NCBI RefSeq assembly: GCF_003790525.1
Contig: NZ_CP033635.1
Length of the DNA stretch: 64,000 nt
Source: Escherichia coli
GTDB lineage: Bacteria; Pseudomonadota; Gammaproteobacteria; Enterobacterales; Enterobacteriaceae
Direction: 5' to 3' (one strand)
In this document: positions 39,463 through 45,876 of the stretch, in pieces
Numbering within the stretch: position 1 is the first letter of the stretch
Layout: every line of letters starts with the position of its first letter
Translations under genes and position numbers: made by a program
Notes under the pieces: generated by a model
The model's input: only the letters and a program-made list of their open reading frames with translations
Database searches by the model: none
What the model was told of the DNA's origin: nothing

Positions 39463-41537
39463 TTACCGCCAATTGTCGCCGTCATGCGGATATGTCGGTT
39501 ATCAGACAGTTCCAGATTCGACAGCACCACTAACTGCGGCAGACTGCGGCGCAGGAAGCGAGACAATAAAGGTCGCAGCGCGTGGTTCACCAATAAAACT
39601 GGCGGCGCACCCAACATCTCCTGACGGGATAGCGCTTCCTGAGTTTGCGCCAGTAAACGATCCGCCAGCCCTGGCTCCAGTCCGCCCCCGCCCTGCAGCG
39701 CCTGTAGTAACAAACGTTCCAGCGGTGTATCGAGGCCAATAACATGGACTTCATCTTTGCCAGGAAACCACTGCTGGGTAATCGCCCGTCCCAACGCCAC
39801 GCGCACGACGGCGGTTAATTCATGTGGATCGCTTTGGATGGGCGCATGTTCCGCCAGCGTTTCGAGAATAGTGCGCATATCGCGAATCGGTACTTTTTCA
39901 TCGAGCAGATTTTGCAGCACTTTATGCAGTGTGGTGAGCGTGACGACGCCAGGAACGAGATCTTCCGTCAGCTTTGGCATCTCCTGGGCGACGCGATCCA
40001 GCAGCTGTTGCGCCTCCTGACGACCAAACAGCTCTGCGGCATGCTGGCTAATGAGGTGGTTAAGATGCGTTGCCACCACCGTGCTGGCCTCAACCACGGT
40101 GTATCCCTGAATCTGCGCCTGTTCTTTAAGCGCACTTTCAATCCAGATAGCATTCAGGCCAAATGCCGGATCGACGGTCGCCTCACCAGGTAACGTCCCG
40201 GCAGCGGTACCAGGGTTAATCGCCAACCAACGCCCCGGATAAGCATCACCACTGCCTATCTCCACGCCTTTCATCAAAATGCGATAGCGGGCAGGTTGCA
40301 GATCCATATTGTCGCGAATGTGCACCACCGGCGGCAGAAACCCCATCTCCTGGGCAAATTTCTTGCGAATACTGCGTATACGGCCCAGCAACTCACCATC
40401 CTGCTGGAAATCGACCATCGGGATCAGGCGATAACCCACTTCCATTCCCAGAGAATCTTCCAGTTGTACATCGTTCCACGTCGCTTCGACAACGGTATTA
40501 TTCTCTGCCATTTTTACCGGTTTTGGTTCGGCAGGCGCTTTTTGTTCACGTCCACGGATCCACCAGGCCAGCCCCAGCAATCCGGCAGTGAACAGCAAAA
40601 ATACCAGGTTTGGCATTCCAGGCACCAGGCCGAGTAAACCGAGCACGGCGGCGCTTAACAACATAACGCTTGGGTTACTGAAAAGCTGATTCACCATCTG
40701 CTCGCCAACATCCTGATCGGTGCTGACACGCGTAACGATGACCCCCGCGGCGGTAGAAATCACCAACGCCGGAATTTGTGCCACCAGACCGTCGCCAATG
40801 GTCAATAGCGTATAACTTTCCGCCGCGTGTCCCATGCTCATGCCATGTTGCAGCACGCCGACCAGCAACCCGCCGACAACGTTAATGACCATGATGAGGA
40901 TCCCGGCGATGGCATCGCCGCGAACAAACTTACTTGCCCCATCCATTGAGCCGTAAAAATCGGCTTCCTGAGTCACTTCGGAGCGGCGTTTTTTCGCCTC
41001 ATCTTCACCAATCAATCCAGCGTTAAGGTCGGCGTCAATCGCCATCTGCTTACCCGGCATGCCATCGAGAACAAAGCGCGCACCCACTTCTGCGATACGC
41101 CCGGCACCTTTGGTAATGACCATAAAGTTGATGATCACGAGAATGACAAACACCACGATACCGATAGCGAAATTGCCACCAACGAGGAAGTGACCGAACG
41201 CTTCGACCACCTTTCCAGCCGCCGCCGCGCCGGTATGCCCTTCCATCAAAATGATACGGGTTGAAGCCACGTTAAGTGCCAGACGCAACAGCGTGGTAAA
41301 CAACAGGATGGTCGGAAACGCAGCAAACTCAAGCGTGCGCTGGGTAAACATCGCCACCAGCAACACCATGATCGACAAGGCAATATTGAAGGTAAACAGC
41401 AGGTCGAGTATGAATGCGGGCAGTGGCAGTACCATCATCGACAAGATCAACAGGATCAAAATCGGTCCGGCAAGGATCTGCCATTGTGTCGATTTCAGGT
41501 TTGCGGGCAGGCGCAGCATCGCGGCCAGATTACTCAT
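39459..41537 (-). CDS. flhA: Flagellar type III export apparatus protein FlhA
   Basis: 692 aa; N-terminal polytopic membrane domain and large cytoplasmic domain; canonical. Confidence 0.95.
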   Translation of the reverse strand: MSNLAAMLRLPANLKSTQWQILAGPILILLILSMMVLPLPAFILDLLFTFNIALSIMVLLVAMFTQRTLEFAAFPTILLFTTLLRLALNVASTRIILMEGHTGAAAAGKVVEAFGHFLVGGNFAIGIVVFVILVIINFMVITKGAGRIAEVGARFVLDGMPGKQMAIDADLNAGLIGEDEAKKRRSEVTQEADFYGSMDGASKFVRGDAIAGILIMVINVVGGLLVGVLQHGMSMGHAAESYTLLTIGDGLVAQIPALVISTAAGVIVTRVSTDQDVGEQMVNQLFSNPSVMLLSAAVLGLLGLVPGMPNLVFLLFTAGLLGLAWWIRGREQKAPAEPKPVKMAENNTVVEATWNDVQLEDSLGMEVGYRLIPMVDFQQDGELLGRIRSIRKKFAQEMGFLPPVVHIRDNMDLQPARYRILMKGVEIGSGDAYPGRWLAINPGTAAGTLPGEATVDPAFGLNAIWIESALKEQAQIQGYTVVEASTVVATHLNHLISQHAAELFGRQEAQQLLDRVAQEMPKLTEDLVPGVVTLTTLHKVLQNLLDEKVPIRDMRTILETLAEHAPIQSDPHELTAVVRVALGRAITQQWFPGKDEVHVIGLDTPLERLLLQALQGGGGLEPGLADRLLAQTQEALSRQEMLGAPPVLLVNHALRPLLSRFLRRSLPQLVVLSNLELSDNRHIRMTATIGGK

Positions 41538-42678
41538 GGGACGGTTTCTCGTTAATAAAATCCAGGGCTTCCGGCACCGGAAGATGAGTAGGTTGTACAG
41601 GGCGCTGTCCTCCAGCCAGACGCCAGCGTTTCAGTTGCCAGACCCAGGCCAGCACTTCCGCTACCGCGGCGTACAGTTGACCCGGGATTTGTTGACCGAT
41701 CTCCGCATGTCGATACAGCGCTCGCGCCAGCGGCGGCGCTTCAAGCGTAGGGACGTTATTTTCAGCACCAATTTCACGAATGCGCAGCGCGACCAGTCCT
41801 GCACCTTTAGCGACCACTTTCGGTGCGCTCATTTTGTTTTCGTCATACTGCAACGCTACCGAATAGTGGGTTGGGTTATTGACAATGACATCCGCTTTCG
41901 GCACATCGGCCATCATCCGACGCCGCGCGGCAGCTCGCTGCATCTGACGTATCCGCCCTTTAACATGGGGGTCGCCTTCGCTTTGTTTGAACTCATCACG
42001 AATATCCTGCCGCGACATTCGCAGCTTTTTCAGGTGGCTGAAGATTTGGAAAAAGACGTCAAATCCCACCATCGGAATAACACCAAGCACCACCAGCAGT
42101 GCGCATAGCCCTACCAGATCCATCGCATTACCCATGGCGGTAATCGGAGACTCGGCCATTAAGCGCATCATCTGCGGCCAGTGATGCCAGAGAAAAAACC
42201 CCGTCACGCTGCCAACCAGGATGGTTTTCAAAATTGCCTTAAGCAACTCCGCGCCAGTCTGTGCCGAGAACATCCGTTTAATGCCCGGTAGCGGGTTGAG
42301 TTTGGAAAACTTCGGCTGCAAGGATTTGCCGCTAAATACCAGCCCCCCCAGCATAACCGGAGAAATAATCGCCACCAGCACCACGCCGCTAATCAGCGGT
42401 AGCAGCGCCAGCATGGCTTCTCTGATCAGCAGAATAATCTGCCCGAGGATCAAATTCGGGTCATTGATAATACTGTGATCAAAATGCAGCCCAGCGGAGA
42501 GCATGCCCGACAATCGACGGGCCAGCGACACACCGCCAAACCAGATAACACACACGCCCACTAACAAAATCAGCAGCGAGGTCAGTTCACGGGAACGCGG
42601 GATTTGCCCCTCTTCCCGCGCTTTTTCTAGTCGGTGAGGTGTGGGGGCTTCTGTTTTGTCGTCGCTCTCGTCAGACAC
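41530..42678 (-). CDS. flhB: Flagellar export apparatus switch protein FlhB
   Basis: 382 aa; autocleavage motif NPTH present (VIVNNPTHYSVAL). Confidence 0.95.
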   Translation of the reverse strand: MSDESDDKTEAPTPHRLEKAREEGQIPRSRELTSLLILLVGVCVIWFGGVSLARRLSGMLSAGLHFDHSIINDPNLILGQIILLIREAMLALLPLISGVVLVAIISPVMLGGLVFSGKSLQPKFSKLNPLPGIKRMFSAQTGAELLKAILKTILVGSVTGFFLWHHWPQMMRLMAESPITAMGNAMDLVGLCALLVVLGVIPMVGFDVFFQIFSHLKKLRMSRQDIRDEFKQSEGDPHVKGRIRQMQRAAARRRMMADVPKADVIVNNPTHYSVALQYDENKMSAPKVVAKGAGLVALRIREIGAENNVPTLEAPPLARALYRHAEIGQQIPGQLYAAVAEVLAWVWQLKRWRLAGGQRPVQPTHLPVPEALDFINEKPSHE

Positions 42679-42914
42679 GTCGCCAATCCTGGAAAGAGTA
42701 TTAAGCGTAAATGATGCCAGATCGCAAAGCGTTCAATGGTTTGAGTAAGGGGCAAAACAGGCGGGATTTAGGGCGTTTATGCAAAAAACAGGTTCAGTTG
42801 CAGAACGTTTTGCGAACCATTTTCCAGTTCTGATATTTAGCCATTTAGCCTATAGAATCGCCCACCGCCTCTCTGTTAGTTTGCTAATAATTAAATTATT
42901 ACAAAGGCGATCAA

Positions 42915-44423
42915 ATGGAATGGCAACAATTGCTTAACTGCAACCGTCGGAAAGATAATCTAAAAAAAACCAGCATAGAATTTTTACATCCCCTTGCTAG
43001 CGGAAGACAAGAGATCGAGCGGGATTACGACCGATTACTTTTTGCTGCGCCAACTCGTCGGCTTGCGGATAAAACACAAGTTTTCCCGTTAGATCAAAAT
43101 GACAGTATACGGACGAGGCTGACTCATTCTCACGAAGTAGCAAACTTTGCTCGCGGAATAGGAATGAGACTCGCTTTCGAGATGAAGGAACACATCTTTG
43201 GCGAAATACCCACGGGGATTGTCGTTGAACGCGACGTTCCTGCTCTGTTAGCAGCGATCGGACTGGCACACGATCTCGGTAATCCACCATTTGGGCATCA
43301 AGGTGAAGCAGCGATGCGCGCATGGTTTAATAAAAATCTTCCAGGCCTTCTTGATAAAGAAGTAAACAGCGAAATATATAACGACTTTCTGCAATTTGAT
43401 GGAAACTCACAAACCCTACGCCTGGTTACCAAATTACAAATTATTAACGATAACTTTGGTCTGAATCTGACCTATGCCACGCTGGCTGCACTGATCAAAT
43501 ATCCCCGAGCTTCATATTCATCGGACAAACATTGGAAAAAGCACGGTTTTTTCTATTCTGAGCATGAGGTTGTCATGGATGTCTGGCAGCAAACGGGCCT
43601 TGGCGTACCAGGTAATGATGCCGGTTGCCGCCACCCATTTACCTGGATAATGGAAGCTTGCGACGATATTGCCTACTCTGTGCTTGACGCAGAAGATACC
43701 ATCAAGAAAGGATTTGCCTCATACCAGGATTTGCGTGATTTTTTGATGTCACAATCCGAGCCGAACGATGTAATTCAACATGTTATTGAAGCTGTAGAGG
43801 CCAAAAATGACGCCTGGAAAGAGCAAAGAAATGCACTTTCACCGGCGGAAATTAATGAACTCAGTATGCAAATGTTCAGAGTTTATGCCACCAGTGCATT
43901 GATTAATGCCGTAGTAGAAGCCTTTCGCGAACAATTACCCACGCTGATGCAGCGTGACTGCCCGTTCAAAGATTTAATCTCGCAAAGCAAAGGTCACGCT
44001 CTCTGCACTGCCCTGAAAATGTTCGACCGAACACGAGGCTACCTTCATCGTTCAGTCTTGCAACTGGAACTTAGGGGATCTAATTACATTACTAACTTGA
44101 TGGATATGCTCTGGATTGGCATCCATGGACACAAAACAAAGAAACAACGAGACGGAGAACGCGAGTCCGCGTCTGCAGATAACCTTTTTGTTTCTCGTGA
44201 AGAATACCTGTCGGATACTCCCTTTGGTCGCTATGCTTACGGGACAATCTCTGAAAATTATCGCCGTGTGTTTGAAGATCCCGCCAATACACTCCCTGCT
44301 CTTTATAAAGAAGCGCAGTTGCTTACCGACGCAATCTCAGGCATGACGGATAGTTATTTAATGCGCCTTCACGATGAGCTAAAATCACTGTATGAATGTG
44401 GTCTCAAACACCCAACAGCTTGA
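42915..44423 (+). CDS. Dgt-family deoxynucleoside triphosphate triphosphohydrolase (dGTPase-like HD-domain protein), accessory paralog
   Basis: 502 aa; dGTPase family motifs in Dgt order: RRLADKTQVFPL, RTRLTHSHEV, GLAHDLGNPPFGH (HD), FTWIMEACDDIAYSVLDAEDTIKKG, ISGMTDSYLMRLHDEL. AT-rich gene on the strand opposite the flanking flagellar/che genes. Confidence 0.8.
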   Translation: MEWQQLLNCNRRKDNLKKTSIEFLHPLASGRQEIERDYDRLLFAAPTRRLADKTQVFPLDQNDSIRTRLTHSHEVANFARGIGMRLAFEMKEHIFGEIPTGIVVERDVPALLAAIGLAHDLGNPPFGHQGEAAMRAWFNKNLPGLLDKEVNSEIYNDFLQFDGNSQTLRLVTKLQIINDNFGLNLTYATLAALIKYPRASYSSDKHWKKHGFFYSEHEVVMDVWQQTGLGVPGNDAGCRHPFTWIMEACDDIAYSVLDAEDTIKKGFASYQDLRDFLMSQSEPNDVIQHVIEAVEAKNDAWKEQRNALSPAEINELSMQMFRVYATSALINAVVEAFREQLPTLMQRDCPFKDLISQSKGHALCTALKMFDRTRGYLHRSVLQLELRGSNYITNLMDMLWIGIHGHKTKKQRDGERESASADNLFVSREEYLSDTPFGRYAYGTISENYRRVFEDPANTLPALYKEAQLLTDAISGMTDSYLMRLHDELKSLYECGLKHPTA

Positions 44424-45144
44424 ACAGCGTATCGCCGATTTTTTTACGCTTAGTGATGAGCATAAGAAAGCCAGAGTATTACTTGATACTCTGGCCTGTT
44501 CCTGTCCGGCCTGGATTTTTGGCGGGATGGTGCGTGACTTAGGCTTGTTTGGCGTCGAGGGATTCTCTTCAGACCTTGATATCGTCATCGGTCGCTCCCG
44601 TGAGGAACTCTTCCGGACATTGGCTGAACTGCCCGTCAAACAACTGCGTTTTAATAAGTTCGGTGGGATCCGTTTTCGTTATCACGACTTCGAATTTGAT
44701 ATCTGGAACCTCAATGAGACATGGGCATTTCGGGAAAAACTTATATTTTGTGAGGATGAATCAAGTCTGTTAAACACTACGCTGATGAGTTGGGATGCCG
44801 TGCTCTATGATCTACGTAGTGAAAAAATTATCAGTAAAGATAATTATTTGACCGACTTAAATCGCAGACATCTTGAACTTGTTCTTCATACTAACCCCAA
44901 TCCAAGCGGTTCGGTAACGAAAATTTTACGCACTATTTTTACTAAGCAGGTAAAGAGTTTAGGTCCGGAACTCTGTCATTTCTTGCACCATGAACTGACG
45001 AAAAAACGTTATGAAGTTTGGCATCATTACGATGTACTGCACTACCAGTCATCGTCATTTTCTCGTTCACAATTTAATGCGTTGATAAATTTACTGGCGC
45101 AACAATCACGCTTCGCTGATCTAAAATTATCAAATTACAAATAA
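44392..45144 (+). CDS. Pol-beta superfamily nucleotidyltransferase (CCA-adding/poly(A)-polymerase-head-like motif), partner of the dGTPase-like gene
   Basis: 250 aa; overlaps upstream gene by 32 nt; N-terminal FGGMVRDLGLFGVEGFSSDLDIVIG matches the GG-x-[VI]RD...DxD nucleotidyltransferase signature; no HD or other known C-terminal domain. Confidence 0.6.
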   Translation: MNVVSNTQQLEQRIADFFTLSDEHKKARVLLDTLACSCPAWIFGGMVRDLGLFGVEGFSSDLDIVIGRSREELFRTLAELPVKQLRFNKFGGIRFRYHDFEFDIWNLNETWAFREKLIFCEDESSLLNTTLMSWDAVLYDLRSEKIISKDNYLTDLNRRHLELVLHTNPNPSGSVTKILRTIFTKQVKSLGPELCHFLHHELTKKRYEVWHHYDVLHYQSSSFSRSQFNALINLLAQQSRFADLKLSNYK

Positions 45145-45189
45145 CCATCCTCCACATACTTCCTGAACGATACCCGCCCCCCTGCTATC

Positions 45190-45212
45190 GGCCTGGCATC
45201 ATCGCGCAGGCC
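45190..45212. terminator. Hairpin between convergent NTase gene and cheZ (possible bidirectional terminator)
   Basis: GGCCTG-gcatcatcgcg-CAGGCC inverted repeat; no clear T-run, so weak. Confidence 0.25.
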
Positions 45213-45231
45213 GAAGTTAAGGCAATACAAA

Positions 45232-45876
45232 TCAAAATCCAAGACTATCCAACAAATCGTCCACCTGATCCTGACTGGCTACCACACCGGCTTTGCTGGT
45301 ATCGACCTGAGGTCCATTAAGCAAACTCTGGTTTTCACGTTTTGGACGCGACTCCTGTTCCGGGATGTTTTCCAACAGCACCATCAGCAACTGACGTTCG
45401 ATCTCCTGAATGACATCCATCATCCGCTTAATGACCTGCCCGGTGAGATCCTGAAAATCCTGCGCCATCATGATTTCCAGCAGTTGCGCGTTAGTAAAGC
45501 TGGTATGCGCGGGGACATCTGCCAGAAATTGCCGCGTATCTGTTACCAGTTCACGGGCGTCGGCAAGGTCAATCGGATCGGCAAACCAGTCATCCCAACG
45601 TTGGGTTAACGCTTTTGCTGATTTCTCCATTTGATCCTGATGCGGTTGTGACGCCTCAACACTGTTCAGCGCCCGCTCCGCAGCCTGGGCGGTCATCTGC
45701 ACAACATAGTACAAACGATCGCGCGCATCGGGGATGGCTTCCGCCGCTTCGGCAATGGCCTGATCCAGCCCCAGCTCCCGCAAACTGTCGCGCAGCATAC
45801 GCGTCAGGCTGCCGATGCGCGCAATGATATCGCCAGCTGAATGCTCGTCAGCAGGTTTGATTGATGGTTGCATCAT
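45232..45876 (-). CDS. cheZ: Chemotaxis phosphatase CheZ
   Basis: Start at [18 protein letters not shown]; 214 aa. Confidence 0.9.

What the first reader, a model, noticed from the sequence alone, without database searches (positions are those of the whole stretch)
42679..45231. AT-rich two-gene islet inserted between flhB and cheZ: candidate undescribed dGTPase + nucleotidyltransferase module
In E. coli K-12 as I recall the gene order, flhB is immediately followed by cheZ. Here about 2.5 kb separates them, carrying two overlapping genes on the strand opposite to every flanking flagellar/chemotaxis gene. Local GC is roughly 40-45 percent against about 52-55 percent in the flanks, which points to horizontal acquisition. 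The first gene is a Dgt-family dNTP triphosphohydrolase paralog with all HD motifs intact; the second is a Pol-beta-type nucleotidyltransferase. Dgt-like dGTPases are an established anti-phage mechanism by dNTP depletion, but I know of no described system pairing one with a translationally coupled CCA/poly(A)-polymerase-head-like nucleotidyltransferase. The overlap implies co-expression and functional linkage, for example a nucleotidyltransferase that senses infection, makes a nucleotide signal or modifies a substrate to control the hydrolase.
Basis: partly seen in the sequence, partly recalled or inferred. Interest (0 to 1): 0.88.

Follow-up and report, generated by a model that had tools for sequence, protein, structure and literature searches.

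The report
Clover anti-phage system between flhB and cheZ
The two extra genes between flhB and cheZ are a real anti-phage module, but it belongs to the Clover family described in 2025: a dGTP-destroying enzyme held in check by a small nucleotide signal made by its partner gene.

Summary
Two overlapping plus-strand genes (42915-44423 and 44392-45144) lie in low-GC DNA between flhB and cheZ. The window is E. coli SMS-3-5, and only 106 of 5,426 complete E. coli genomes carry the pair. It is not an undescribed system. It is a Clover defence system (Yamaguchi et al., bioRxiv 2025, PMC12265719).

- **Gene 1 is CloA.** It matches the solved Salmonella CloA structures at E = 5.6e-191. It keeps 6/6 catalytic residues, 9/10 residues of the inhibitor (p3diT) pocket and 9/9 residues of the activator (dTTP) pocket. 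Housekeeping Dgt keeps 6/6, 3/10 and 4/9.
- **Gene 2 is CloB.** It aligns end to end with the validated E. coli H5 CloB (35% identity, E = 1e-54). The mutated catalytic aspartates are conserved, and the predicted fold resembles the head of a CCA-adding enzyme.
- **Inferred mechanism.** CloB makes p3diT, which keeps CloA off. Phage-driven dTTP accumulation switches CloA on, and dGTP depletion stops replication.
- **What is new.** This is a divergent, untested sub-clade. It occupies the cheZ-adjacent site, usually between flhB and cheZ, in at least seven enterobacterial genera, with no mobility genes.

Verdict: a new member of a known kind, of modest interest.

The parts
42775..45219 (.). Islet-specific DNA (2,445 bp), absent from about 98% of complete E. 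coli genomes. It replaces a 93-bp REP-like filler found in K-12.
   Evidence: Junctions were mapped against K-12 DH10B. The distribution is 106 of 5,426 genomes. There are no terminal direct or inverted repeats at the ends, no integrase or transposase, and no Rfam family.
42775..42914 (+). cloA upstream region, which together with 42679-42774 forms the 236-nt divergent flhB-cloA intergenic region. It holds a weak sigma-70-like match (CTGATA-17-TAGAAT, 42830-42858), a block conserved across genera (TTTGCGAA..TTCCAGTT, about 42803-42830) and an AAAGG ribosome-binding site 8 nt before the ATG.
   Evidence: The promoter scan found 3 matches against 4.3 expected from shuffles, so it is not evidence by itself. 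The cross-genus alignment shows the conserved block (A4). The sequence was read directly. Function is inferred, not shown.
42915..44423 (+). cloA, encoding a 502-aa HD-domain dGTPase effector (RefSeq WP_012311981.1, labelled 'dgt'). Catalytic residues are H71, H119, D120, H128, E131 and D250. The p3diT pocket is R31, R36, D39, R40, F43, N77, N184, Q319 and R322. The dTTP pocket is R49, D63, Q175, K264, S446, N448, A473, T478 and Y481. There is an extra predicted helix at 409-421, within a loop that varies across the family.
   Evidence: PDB CloA entries 9p8s-9p8v match at E = 5.6e-191. Identity is 65.7% to Salmonella CloA and 60-63% to E. coli H5 CloA. The AF2 model has pLDDT 90.0 and superposes on 9p8t at TM 0.94. 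TIGR01353 scores above its cut-off, and the PADLOC dGTPase model matches at 5.8e-71.
44392..44423 (+). 32-nt overlap between the cloA stop and the cloB start, which suggests translational coupling.
   Evidence: Seen. Overlaps of 32-50 nt are conserved in homologous loci, including the validated E. coli H5 operon.
44392..45144 (+). cloB, encoding a 250-aa Pol-beta-superfamily nucleotidyltransferase (RefSeq WP_001103661.1, 'hypothetical protein'). The motif residues are G44, G45, R48, D49, S60, D61, D63, D103 and W105.
   Evidence: It aligns over its full length with validated E. coli H5 CloB at 35% identity, E = 1e-54, and D61/D63 align with H5 D71/D73. The motif columns are invariant in 50 homologues. 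The AF2 model has pLDDT 92.2. The best PDB fold matches are class II CCA-adding enzymes, at E of about 1e-8. It has no significant hit in Pfam, NCBIfam, PADLOC or PDB sequence searches.
45184..45217 (.). Stable stem-loop between the convergent cloB and cheZ genes. It may be a bidirectional terminator, but it has no T-run.
   Evidence: RNA fold energy is -24.3 kcal/mol, z = -3.27 against shuffles. The terminator scan did not call it. Function is inferred.

Best explanation
The islet is a Clover anti-phage defence system, with cloA (42915-44423) and cloB (44392-45144). The mechanism below is taken from the experimentally characterised Salmonella and E. coli H5 systems and is inferred here by homology. 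CloB is a small Pol-beta nucleotidyltransferase that constitutively joins two dTTP-derived units into p3diT (5'-triphosphothymidyl-3'5'-thymidine). p3diT binds at the CloA dimer interface and holds the CloA dGTPase off, which protects the uninfected cell. When a phage that remodels the dNTP pool (T5-like Demerecviridae) drives dTTP up, dTTP binds an adjacent, mutually exclusive pocket. This completes the active site, and CloA hydrolyses dGTP, starving phage DNA replication. Shown here: homology of both proteins to validated CloA and CloB, conservation of the catalytic and both allosteric residue sets, the predicted folds, the operon architecture and purifying selection. Inferred: the chemistry, the signals and the phage range for this particular allele.
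For: CloA matches the solved CloA structures 9p8s-9p8v at E = 5.6e-191, and Foldseek names those entries as CloA apo, with CloB, with p3diT and with dTTP. The AF2 model superposes on them at TM 0.94, and the next-best hits are 20 orders of magnitude weaker. Residue mapping gives 6/6 catalytic, 9/10 p3diT-pocket and 9/9 dTTP-pocket residues, whereas E. coli Dgt keeps 6/6, 3/10 and 4/9. The one mismatch (T25 to L) is at a position that varies across the family. CloB aligns end to end with validated H5 CloB (E = 1e-54), and D61/D63 correspond to the D71/D73 residues mutated in the paper (PMC12265719). The catalytic triad D61/D63/D103 is invariant in 50 homologues. The CloB model has a CCA-adding-enzyme-like fold. 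The gene pair is conserved: 49 of 50 species-level CloB loci have a CloA-type match directly upstream on the same strand, 43 of them near full length. Within E. coli, dN/dS is 0.19 for cloA and 0.02 for cloB. Natural knock-outs fit the paper's toxicity asymmetry: cloA is broken with cloB intact in E. coli CLSC36 and in E. hormaechei, and the reverse was not seen in the loci inspected.
Against: No experiment exists for this allele. CloB is only 35% identical to the validated E. coli H5 CloB, and it has no solved structure, so product specificity cannot be read from its sequence. This CloA differs from the validated ones by a 5-aa and a 20-aa insertion (the latter a predicted extra helix at 409-421). 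It also differs at two named contacts: H263 to Q at an octamer interface, and Q427 to D in the loop switch. Both positions vary across the family. No convincing promoter was found. PADLOC-DB v2 has no model that recognises CloB. I could not check whether this protein is in the paper's list of about 650 CloB homologues, because the supplement is not held.
Confidence: 0.9

Rival explanations
1. It is a Clover-type module with altered signalling. In this cheZ-linked sub-clade, CloB would make a different oligonucleotide, or CloA would respond to a different cue or assemble differently (not as an octamer). The architecture would be Clover but the chemistry would differ.
For: CloB is only 35% identical to validated H5 CloB, while CloA is 60-63% identical. 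CloA has an extra predicted helix at 409-421 just before the dTTP-pocket residues S446 and N448. The octamer contact H263 is Q, and the switch residue Q427 is D.
Against: Every base-reading residue named for p3diT (D37, N75, Q311) and for dTTP (D61, T449, R47, Y452) is conserved. The deviating positions vary across the whole family. The paper reports that a distantly related Xanthomonas CloB also makes p3diT (PMC12265719).
Confidence: 0.07
2. It is mainly a selfish addiction (toxin-antitoxin-like) pair, or a decaying remnant. It would persist because losing cloB while cloA is intact is lethal, and it would give little or no defence in this host.
For: The paper shows CloA is toxic without active CloB. 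Several natural alleles have cloA inactivated with cloB intact: CLSC36 by a split ORF, E. hormaechei L009 by an IS3 insertion and E. coli E17 by IS1 truncation. Buttiauxella izardii retains only fragments.
Against: Both ORFs are intact in the window, in FDAARGOS_944 and in 1532MA, and RefSeq lists a dgt gene plus a hypothetical protein under nearly all of the roughly 55 full-length rows shown, which are at least 98.3% identical. dN/dS is 0.19 and 0.02. The allosteric pockets, which matter only for regulated defence, are fully conserved. Homologous operons give more than 10,000-fold protection against T5.
Confidence: 0.03
3. It is a housekeeping or metabolic paralogue pair, with a second Dgt for dNTP-pool control and a CCA-adding or poly(A)-polymerase-type enzyme acting on tRNA or RNA 3' ends.
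For: RefSeq labels gene 1 'dgt'. The best PDB fold matches for gene 2 are CCA-adding enzymes.
Against: Gene 1 scores below the curated cut-offs of every Dgt equivalog model (for example NF003429: 270.9 against 405). It carries the Clover-specific allosteric pockets that Dgt lacks. Gene 2 is 250 aa, against 340-520 aa for the CCA-adding enzymes it matches, so it lacks most of the body and tail domains that hold tRNA (14-18% identity, TM 0.5-0.6). Its Pfam PolyA_pol match is not significant (E = 0.099). The pair is present in only 2% of E. coli genomes.
Confidence: 0.01

Closest known systems
Clover defence system (CloA/CloB) of Salmonella enterica SA20044414 and E. coli H5 (Yamaguchi et al. 2025, PMC12265719; PDB 9P8S-9P8V)
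   Same: It has the same two-gene architecture, with overlapping cloA and cloB. CloA is 60-66% identical over its full length, and the catalytic, p3diT-pocket and dTTP-pocket residues are conserved. CloB is homologous end to end, with the same catalytic aspartates.
   Different: CloB is only 35% identical to E. coli H5 CloB. CloA has an extra 5 aa and an extra 20 aa (a predicted helix at 409-421), plus H263 to Q and Q427 to D. The chromosomal context also differs: the E. coli H5 operon sits in a tRNA-Sec integrase island, whereas this one lies between flhB and cheZ with no mobility genes. This allele has not been tested experimentally.
Stand-alone anti-phage dGTPases (Tal et al. 2022; Shewanella putrefaciens SpdGTPase, PDB 9P8W; NCBIfam NF041026; PADLOC 'dGTPase')
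   Same: It has the same HD-domain dGTPase fold, and it defends by depleting dGTP. The PADLOC dGTPase model matches at 5.8e-71.
   Different: It scores 182.9 against a cut-off of 400 for NF041026, and 9p8w matches only at E = 2.5e-24 over the N-terminal third. According to the paper, SpdGTPase is constitutively active, forms a hexamer, has no partner gene and favours T7 over T5.
Housekeeping E. coli Dgt (b0160; PDB 4X9E, 6OIY)
   Same: The catalytic HD and HE residues are identical (6/6), and the overall fold is shared (TM about 0.77).
   Different: Identity is 31%. Only 3/10 p3diT-pocket and 4/9 dTTP-pocket residues are shared. It scores below the Dgt equivalog cut-off. Dgt is a core gene located elsewhere in the genome.
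Class II CCA-adding enzymes and poly(A) polymerase (PDB 3H39, 1VFG, 4WBY)
   Same: They are the best structural matches for CloB, which shares the GGxxRD...DxD head-domain motif.
   Different: Identity is 14-18%. CloB is about 250 aa, against 340-520 aa for these enzymes, so it lacks most of the tRNA-binding body and tail domains. The Pfam hit is not significant. In Clover, the product is a dinucleotide signal rather than an extended RNA 3' end.
Defence systems run by an inhibitory nucleotide signal: Hailong (HalB oligodeoxyadenylate) and Panoptes/MISS (2'3'-c-di-AMP)
   Same: They share the logic of a transferase that continuously makes a nucleotide which keeps a toxic effector off (as stated in PMC12265719).
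   Different: The effectors and signals are unrelated, and the CloB query found no PADLOC family. This comparison comes from the paper's discussion and was not tested here.

Membership tests
Clover (CloA/CloB) | A two-gene operon in which an HD-domain dNTPase is followed directly by a Pol-beta nucleotidyltransferase on the same strand | tested here: met
   The genes are 42915-44423 and 44392-45144, both on the plus strand, with a 32-nt overlap. The same arrangement is seen in validated E. coli H5 and in 49 of 50 species-level CloB loci.
Clover (CloA/CloB) | CloA is homologous over its full length to an experimentally characterised CloA | tested here: met
   PDB 9p8s-9p8v match at E = 5.6e-191 over residues 1-495. 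Identity is 65.7% to Salmonella CloA and 60-63% to E. coli H5 CloA. The AF2 model superposes on 9p8t at TM 0.94, rmsd 2.5 A.
Clover (CloA/CloB) | CloA has the HD metal site (H69, H117, D118, D242) and the HE dyad (H126, E129) | tested here: met
   The corresponding residues H71, H119, D120, D250, H128 and E131 are all present, and they are invariant in 50 homologues.
Clover (CloA/CloB) | CloA has the p3diT (inhibitor) pocket: T25, R29, R34, D37, R38, F41, N75, N181, Q311, R314 | tested here: met
   Nine of ten residues are identical. T25 to L27 is the exception, at a position that varies across the family. E. coli Dgt, the control, keeps 3/10.
Clover (CloA/CloB) | CloA has the dTTP (activator) pocket: R47, D61, Q172, K256, S418, N420, A444, T449, Y452 | tested here: met
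   Nine of nine residues are identical. E. coli Dgt, the control, keeps 4/9.
Clover (CloA/CloB) | CloB is homologous to a characterised CloB and has an intact [D/E]h[D/E]...h[D/E]h active site | tested here: met
   It is 35% identical to E. coli H5 CloB over 249 residues, E = 1e-54. D61-L-D63 aligns with H5 D71-I-D73, the residues mutated in the paper, and the third acidic residue is D103. These columns are invariant in 50 sequences. The predicted fold is a Pol-beta, CCA-enzyme-like head.
Clover (CloA/CloB) | CloA forms an octameric 'four-leaf clover' assembly | not testable with these tools
   Only a monomer model was made. The interface residue H263 is Q271 here, and there is an extra helix at 409-421. 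Both sites vary across the family.
Clover (CloA/CloB) | Biochemistry: a dGTPase activated by dTTP and inhibited by p3diT, with CloB synthesising p3diT | not testable with these tools
   This is inferred from pocket conservation only and needs enzyme assays and LC-MS.
Clover (CloA/CloB) | Phenotype: protection against T5-like phages, and toxicity when CloB is inactivated | not testable with these tools
   The only evidence is indirect. Natural alleles with cloA broken and cloB intact exist, and the reverse was not seen in the loci inspected.
Stand-alone anti-phage dGTPase (NCBIfam NF041026 / NF003701) | The whole-protein score reaches the curated cut-off | tested here: not met
   NF041026 scores 182.9 against 400, and NF003701 scores 153.5 against 383. 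Both match only the N-terminal region.
Housekeeping Dgt (NCBIfam NF003429 and NF002205 equivalogs) | The whole-protein score reaches the curated cut-off | tested here: not met
   NF003429 scores 270.9 against 405, and NF002205 scores 358.3 against 439. The broad subfamily TIGR01353 is met (284.9 against 152.35).
Class II CCA-adding enzyme / poly(A) polymerase (Pfam PF01743 plus body and tail domains) | A significant match to the head-domain profile and the presence of tRNA-binding body and tail domains | tested here: not met
   PF01743 matches at E = 0.099. The protein is 250 aa, against 340-520 aa for the structural matches, with 14-18% identity.

The most novel reading that the evidence does not exclude
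The cheZ-adjacent site, usually the flhB|cheZ junction, is an old, cross-genus 'home' for one fast-evolving Clover lineage. The lineage would be maintained or exchanged by homologous recombination through the conserved flagellar and chemotaxis flanks rather than by a mobile element. It is transcribed divergently from the FlhDC-dependent flhBAE control region, so its expression might be tied to the flagellar regulon, for instance raising defence when the cell is motile and exposed to flagellum-dependent or other phages. The evidence neither excludes nor supports the regulatory link. The conserved placement itself is well supported.
Probability: 0.1. Interest if true: 0.55.

Novelty: new member of a known kind. 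Interest (0 to 1): 0.3.

Why it matters
Three things remain useful.

1. **Annotation fix.** RefSeq labels CloA 'dgt' and CloB 'hypothetical protein'. PADLOC-DB v2 would report only a stand-alone dGTPase and miss the regulator.
2. **A natural test set.** This Clover sub-clade is divergent and untested, with CloB 35% identical to the validated E. coli H5 protein and an extra helix in CloA. It could show how far p3diT/dTTP signalling extends.
3. **A fixed chromosomal address.** Unlike the integrase-borne E. coli H5 copy, this lineage sits at the same site between core flagellar operons in Escherichia, Enterobacter, Cronobacter, Pseudescherichia, Buttiauxella, Atlantibacter and Pluralibacter, with no mobility genes. 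That is a small but clear example of a defence locus that is not on a mobile element, and it bears on how such systems persist and are lost.

Tried and rejected
- **CloB family searches found nothing significant.** There was no hit in PADLOC or NCBIfam, Pfam PolyA_pol matched only at E = 0.099, and the PDB sequence search was empty. Identification came from the literature, direct comparison with E. coli H5 and the predicted fold.
- **The paper's list of about 650 CloB homologues is not held**, so I could not check whether WP_001103661.1 is already catalogued.
- **Nicastro et al. 2023 (NAR gkad879) is not held**. It is cited only through the Clover preprint.
- **Literature searches were empty.** I found nothing on an flhB-cheZ defence hotspot or on the protein accessions.
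- **The E. coli 'dGTPase' defence island in PMC11728103 is a different locus** (yjcB-ssb), so it is irrelevant here.
- **I found no mobility signatures.** There are no target-site duplications or terminal inverted repeats at 42775/45219, and no integrase or transposase in the islet.
- **K-12's 93-bp empty-site filler shows no Clover remnant.** The best match is 16 nt, E = 0.01.
- **No Rfam family matched.** The only hit was a sub-threshold snoRNA match that is likely chance.
- **Promoter and terminator scans did not exceed shuffled expectation**.
- **No CloB homologue occurs in the phage collection**, and only distant ones occur on plasmids: Phaeobacter at 34% and Bacillus megaplasmids at about 24%.
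- **Simple recent horizontal transfer was considered and set aside as the whole story.** The synonymous divergence (dS) of the islet equals that of its flanks within E. coli, and CloB divergence tracks host divergence across genera (Spearman 0.91).
- **Pure vertical descent is not established either.** Only 2% of E. coli genomes carry the islet, and the Clover genes evolve far faster than their flanks.
Full report
**1. Observation**

The ORF listing shows two plus-strand ORFs. One is 502 aa at 42915-44423 and the other is 250 aa at 44392-45144, and they overlap by 32 nt. They lie between flhB (41530-42678, minus strand) and cheZ (45232-45876, minus strand). GC falls to 0.40-0.47 inside the interval, against 0.51-0.58 outside it. 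The window is identical to E. coli SMS-3-5, NC_010498.1.

Of 5,426 complete E. coli genomes, 5,386 match the flanks but only 106 carry the insert. One more carries a truncated copy. Alignment with K-12 places the junctions at 42774/42775 and 45219/45220. So 2,445 bp of islet-specific DNA replace a 93-bp REP-like filler. The rest of the window is ordinary core genome, from araFGH to pphA.

**2. What the genes are**

Gene 1 matches the PADLOC dGTPase model (5.8e-71) and the broad TIGR01353 subfamily. It falls below the curated cut-offs of every Dgt equivalog and of the stand-alone anti-phage dGTPase models. Its best solved relatives, at E = 5.6e-191, are four octameric entries, 9p8s to 9p8v. [quoted passage not shown]

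A literature search for a dGTPase paired with a nucleotidyltransferase found the Clover preprint (PMC12265719, read). The paper's data statement writes 8P9S and so on, evidently a transposition of 9P8S.

In Clover, according to that paper:
- CloA is a dGTPase that is inactive on its own.
- CloA is switched on by dTTP, which rises when T5-like phages remodel the dNTP pool.
- CloB is a Pol-beta nucleotidyltransferase that makes p3diT, which binds CloA and keeps it off.
- Mutating CloB (D71A/D73A) is toxic to the cell.

One of the two strains tested, E. coli H5, is in the genome collection. Its operon (L004:5920-8119) is exactly the 2,200 bp given in the paper, and it lies in a tRNA-Sec integrase island.

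**3. Membership tests**

*CloA.* The window protein is 60-63% identical to H5 CloA and 65.7% identical to Salmonella CloA over its full length. I mapped every residue named in the paper.

| Residue set | Window CloA | E. coli Dgt (control) |
|---|---|---|
| Catalytic and metal | 6/6 | 6/6 |
| p3diT pocket | 9/10 (T25 to L) | 3/10 |
| dTTP pocket | 9/9 | 4/9 |

The control shows the pockets are specific to Clover. Across 50 CloA homologues the pocket residues are largely invariant. The positions where the window differs (T25, Q427, H263) vary across the family. The apparent 20-aa insertion lies in a loop that ranges from 5 to 32 residues across the family, and in this protein it is predicted as an extra helix at 409-421. 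The AF2 model (pLDDT 90.0) superposes on 9p8t at TM 0.94. The next-best structures, the L. blandensis dGTPase and E. coli Dgt, are 20 orders of magnitude weaker in E-value.

*CloB.* It has no significant hit in PADLOC, NCBIfam, Pfam (PolyA_pol, E = 0.099) or the PDB sequence search. It does align end to end with H5 CloB at 35% identity, E = 1e-54, and its D61-L-D63 aligns with H5 D71-I-D73. In 50 homologues, G44, G45, R48, D49, S60, D61, D63, D103 and W105 are invariant. The AF2 model (pLDDT 92.2) finds class II CCA-adding enzymes as its best structural matches (E of about 1e-8, TM 0.5-0.6, 14-18% identity). CloB is only 250 aa, against 340-520 aa for those enzymes, so it lacks most of their tRNA-binding body and tail.

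*The pair.* It is conserved. Of 50 species-level CloB loci from a scan of 100,044 representative genomes, 49 have a CloA-type match directly upstream on the same strand. Of these, 43 are near full length, and the remaining 6 are cut by contig ends or are decayed. Every sequence-level defining feature of Clover is therefore met. Oligomeric state, biochemistry and phenotype cannot be tested with these tools.

**4. Mechanism**

By homology, CloB continuously makes p3diT from dTTP. p3diT occupies the dimer-interface pocket (R31, R36, D39, R40, F43, N77, N184, Q319, R322) and keeps CloA inactive. Infection by a phage that raises dTTP fills the adjacent pocket (R49, D63, Q175, K264, S446, N448, A473, T478, Y481). 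That completes the active site (H71, H119, D120, H128, E131, D250), dGTP is destroyed and phage replication stalls.

The conserved 32-50 nt overlap of cloA and cloB fits coupled expression. That would matter for this pair, because CloA without CloB is toxic.

Within E. coli both genes are under purifying selection, based on a comparison with strain FDAARGOS_944:
- cloA has dN/dS 0.19 (13 synonymous and 9 non-synonymous changes).
- cloB has dN/dS 0.02 (12 synonymous and 1 non-synonymous change).

Natural knock-outs follow the expected asymmetry. cloA is split with cloB intact in E. coli CLSC36. An IS3 element interrupts cloA, with cloB intact, in one E. hormaechei genome. I did not see the reverse in the loci inspected. 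These steps are inferred for this allele and have not been shown experimentally.

**5.

The pairing has been described, so 'undescribed' no longer holds.

The 'recent horizontal islet' reading needs qualifying on several counts.
- The same sub-clade lies between flhB and cheZ in Enterobacter hormaechei and E. quasihormaechei, Cronobacter dublinensis, Pseudescherichia (several species), 'Escherichia sp. ESNIH1' and Buttiauxella. B. izardii retains only fragments there.
- It also lies next to cheZ, without flhB, in Atlantibacter, Pluralibacter and two unidentified enterobacteria.
- The module has low GC (0.44-0.47) in most of these hosts, whose flanks are 0.53-0.61. Cronobacter is the exception at 0.54.
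- Within E. coli, the synonymous divergence of cloA (0.040) and cloB (0.082) equals that of cheZ (0.036), flhB (0.097) and cheY (0.023).
- Across genera, CloB identity tracks the identity of the flanking core proteins (Spearman 0.91; 0.57 for CloA). Clover nevertheless evolves far faster. For example, the two Atlantibacter species are 99.6% identical in the core flanks but 75% identical in CloA.
- There are no mobility genes, no terminal repeats, no phage-borne copies and no enterobacterial plasmid copies.

I read this as a long-resident, locus-specific Clover lineage that is repeatedly lost or replaced, probably by homologous recombination through the conserved flanks. I cannot decide whether E. 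coli regained it or kept it in a minority lineage. The 2% frequency and the remnant-free empty site favour regain. The co-divergence with the flanks favours long residence.

**6. Comparison with known systems, and novelty**

The closest known system is Clover itself, and this locus meets every sequence-level criterion for membership. It differs from the validated examples in four ways: CloB has diverged to 35% identity, CloA has an extra helix, two named contacts differ, and the chromosomal context is different.

It is not a stand-alone anti-phage dGTPase, because it scores below the curated cut-offs, has a partner gene and carries the allosteric pockets. It is not housekeeping Dgt. CloB is not a CCA-adding enzyme. 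I therefore rate it a new member of a known kind. It may already be in the paper's unpublished-here list of about 650 homologues, which I could not check.

Interest is modest. A specialist would not be surprised by another Clover operon. The fixed placement between core flagellar operons across genera, the absence of any mobile element and the divergent promoter region shared with flhBAE (236 nt in both E. coli and E. hormaechei, with a conserved block) are the only features that go beyond the published description.

Noticed in passing
L010, L011, L012, L014, L022-L025, L031, L064 (flhB|Clover|cheZ); L001-L003, L026, L027, L029 (Clover|cheZ without flhB): The same Clover sub-clade occupies the cheZ-adjacent site in at least seven enterobacterial genera, with no mobility genes. 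CloB identity tracks the identity of the flanking core proteins (Spearman 0.91), but the Clover genes evolve much faster than the flanks.
   Followed up: partly
L018 (E. coli E17, NZ_CM143886.1), corresponding to the window from about 43535 rightwards: An IS1 element truncates cloA after about 206 codons. Everything from there through cloB, cheZYBR, tap, tar, cheWA, motBA, flhDC and uspC into otsA is deleted, which predicts a non-motile strain.
   Followed up: partly
L071 (E. coli CLSC36), L009 (E. hormaechei CP056155.1): These are natural alleles with cloA inactivated (a split ORF in one, an IS3 insertion in the other) while cloB stays intact. This fits the published finding that CloA without CloB is toxic but the reverse is tolerated. 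Two more E. coli rows (H120, H121) show the same annotation pattern but were not inspected.
   Followed up: partly
L064 (Buttiauxella izardii) and L031 (B. massiliensis): B. izardii has only short remnants of cloA (62 aa) and cloB (76 aa) between flhB and cheZ, and B. massiliensis has partial matches. This looks like decay in place at the same locus.
   Followed up: no
window 42679-42914; alignment A4: The divergent flhB-cloA intergenic region is 236 nt in both E. coli and E. hormaechei, and 234 nt in Pseudescherichia. It contains a conserved block (TTTGCG[A/T]A..TTCCAGTT, about 42803-42830). The islet junction at 42774/42775 lies only 96 nt upstream of the flhB start codon, close to where the FlhDC-dependent flhBAE promoter elements are expected (from memory, not verified).
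   Followed up: partly
window 45184-45217: There is a stable stem-loop (-24.3 kcal/mol, z = -3.27) between the convergent cloB and cheZ genes. It lacks a T-run, and the terminator scan did not call it.
   Followed up: partly
L004:1353-5535 (E. coli H5, next to its Clover operon): The validated H5 Clover operon sits in a tRNA-Sec integrase island. Beside it is a cluster annotated as a PfkB kinase, 7-cyano-7-deazaguanine synthase, 8-oxoguanine DNA glycosylase and a DNA adenine methylase, which may be another defence or DNA-modification module.
   Followed up: no
window 42915-45144 (RefSeq ECSMS35_RS06590 and ECSMS35_RS29455): RefSeq labels CloA 'dgt', although the true housekeeping dgt is elsewhere in the genome. 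It labels CloB 'hypothetical protein', under a late-added locus tag. PADLOC-DB v2 recognises only the dGTPase half.
   Followed up: yes
L016 (E. coli FDAARGOS_944) and L072 (E. coli 1532MA): In FDAARGOS_944, flhB is annotated as a pseudogene (internal stop) next to an intact Clover pair. In 1532MA, an IS1 element is inserted between cloB and cheZ and both Clover genes are intact.
   Followed up: no
L005:875-967 (K-12 empty site): The 93 bp that occupy the site in Clover-free E. coli contain a REP-like palindromic element (…GTCGGATGCGGCGTCATCGCCTTATCAGAC…). I identified it as REP-like by eye and from memory of the REP consensus, without testing it.
   Followed up: no
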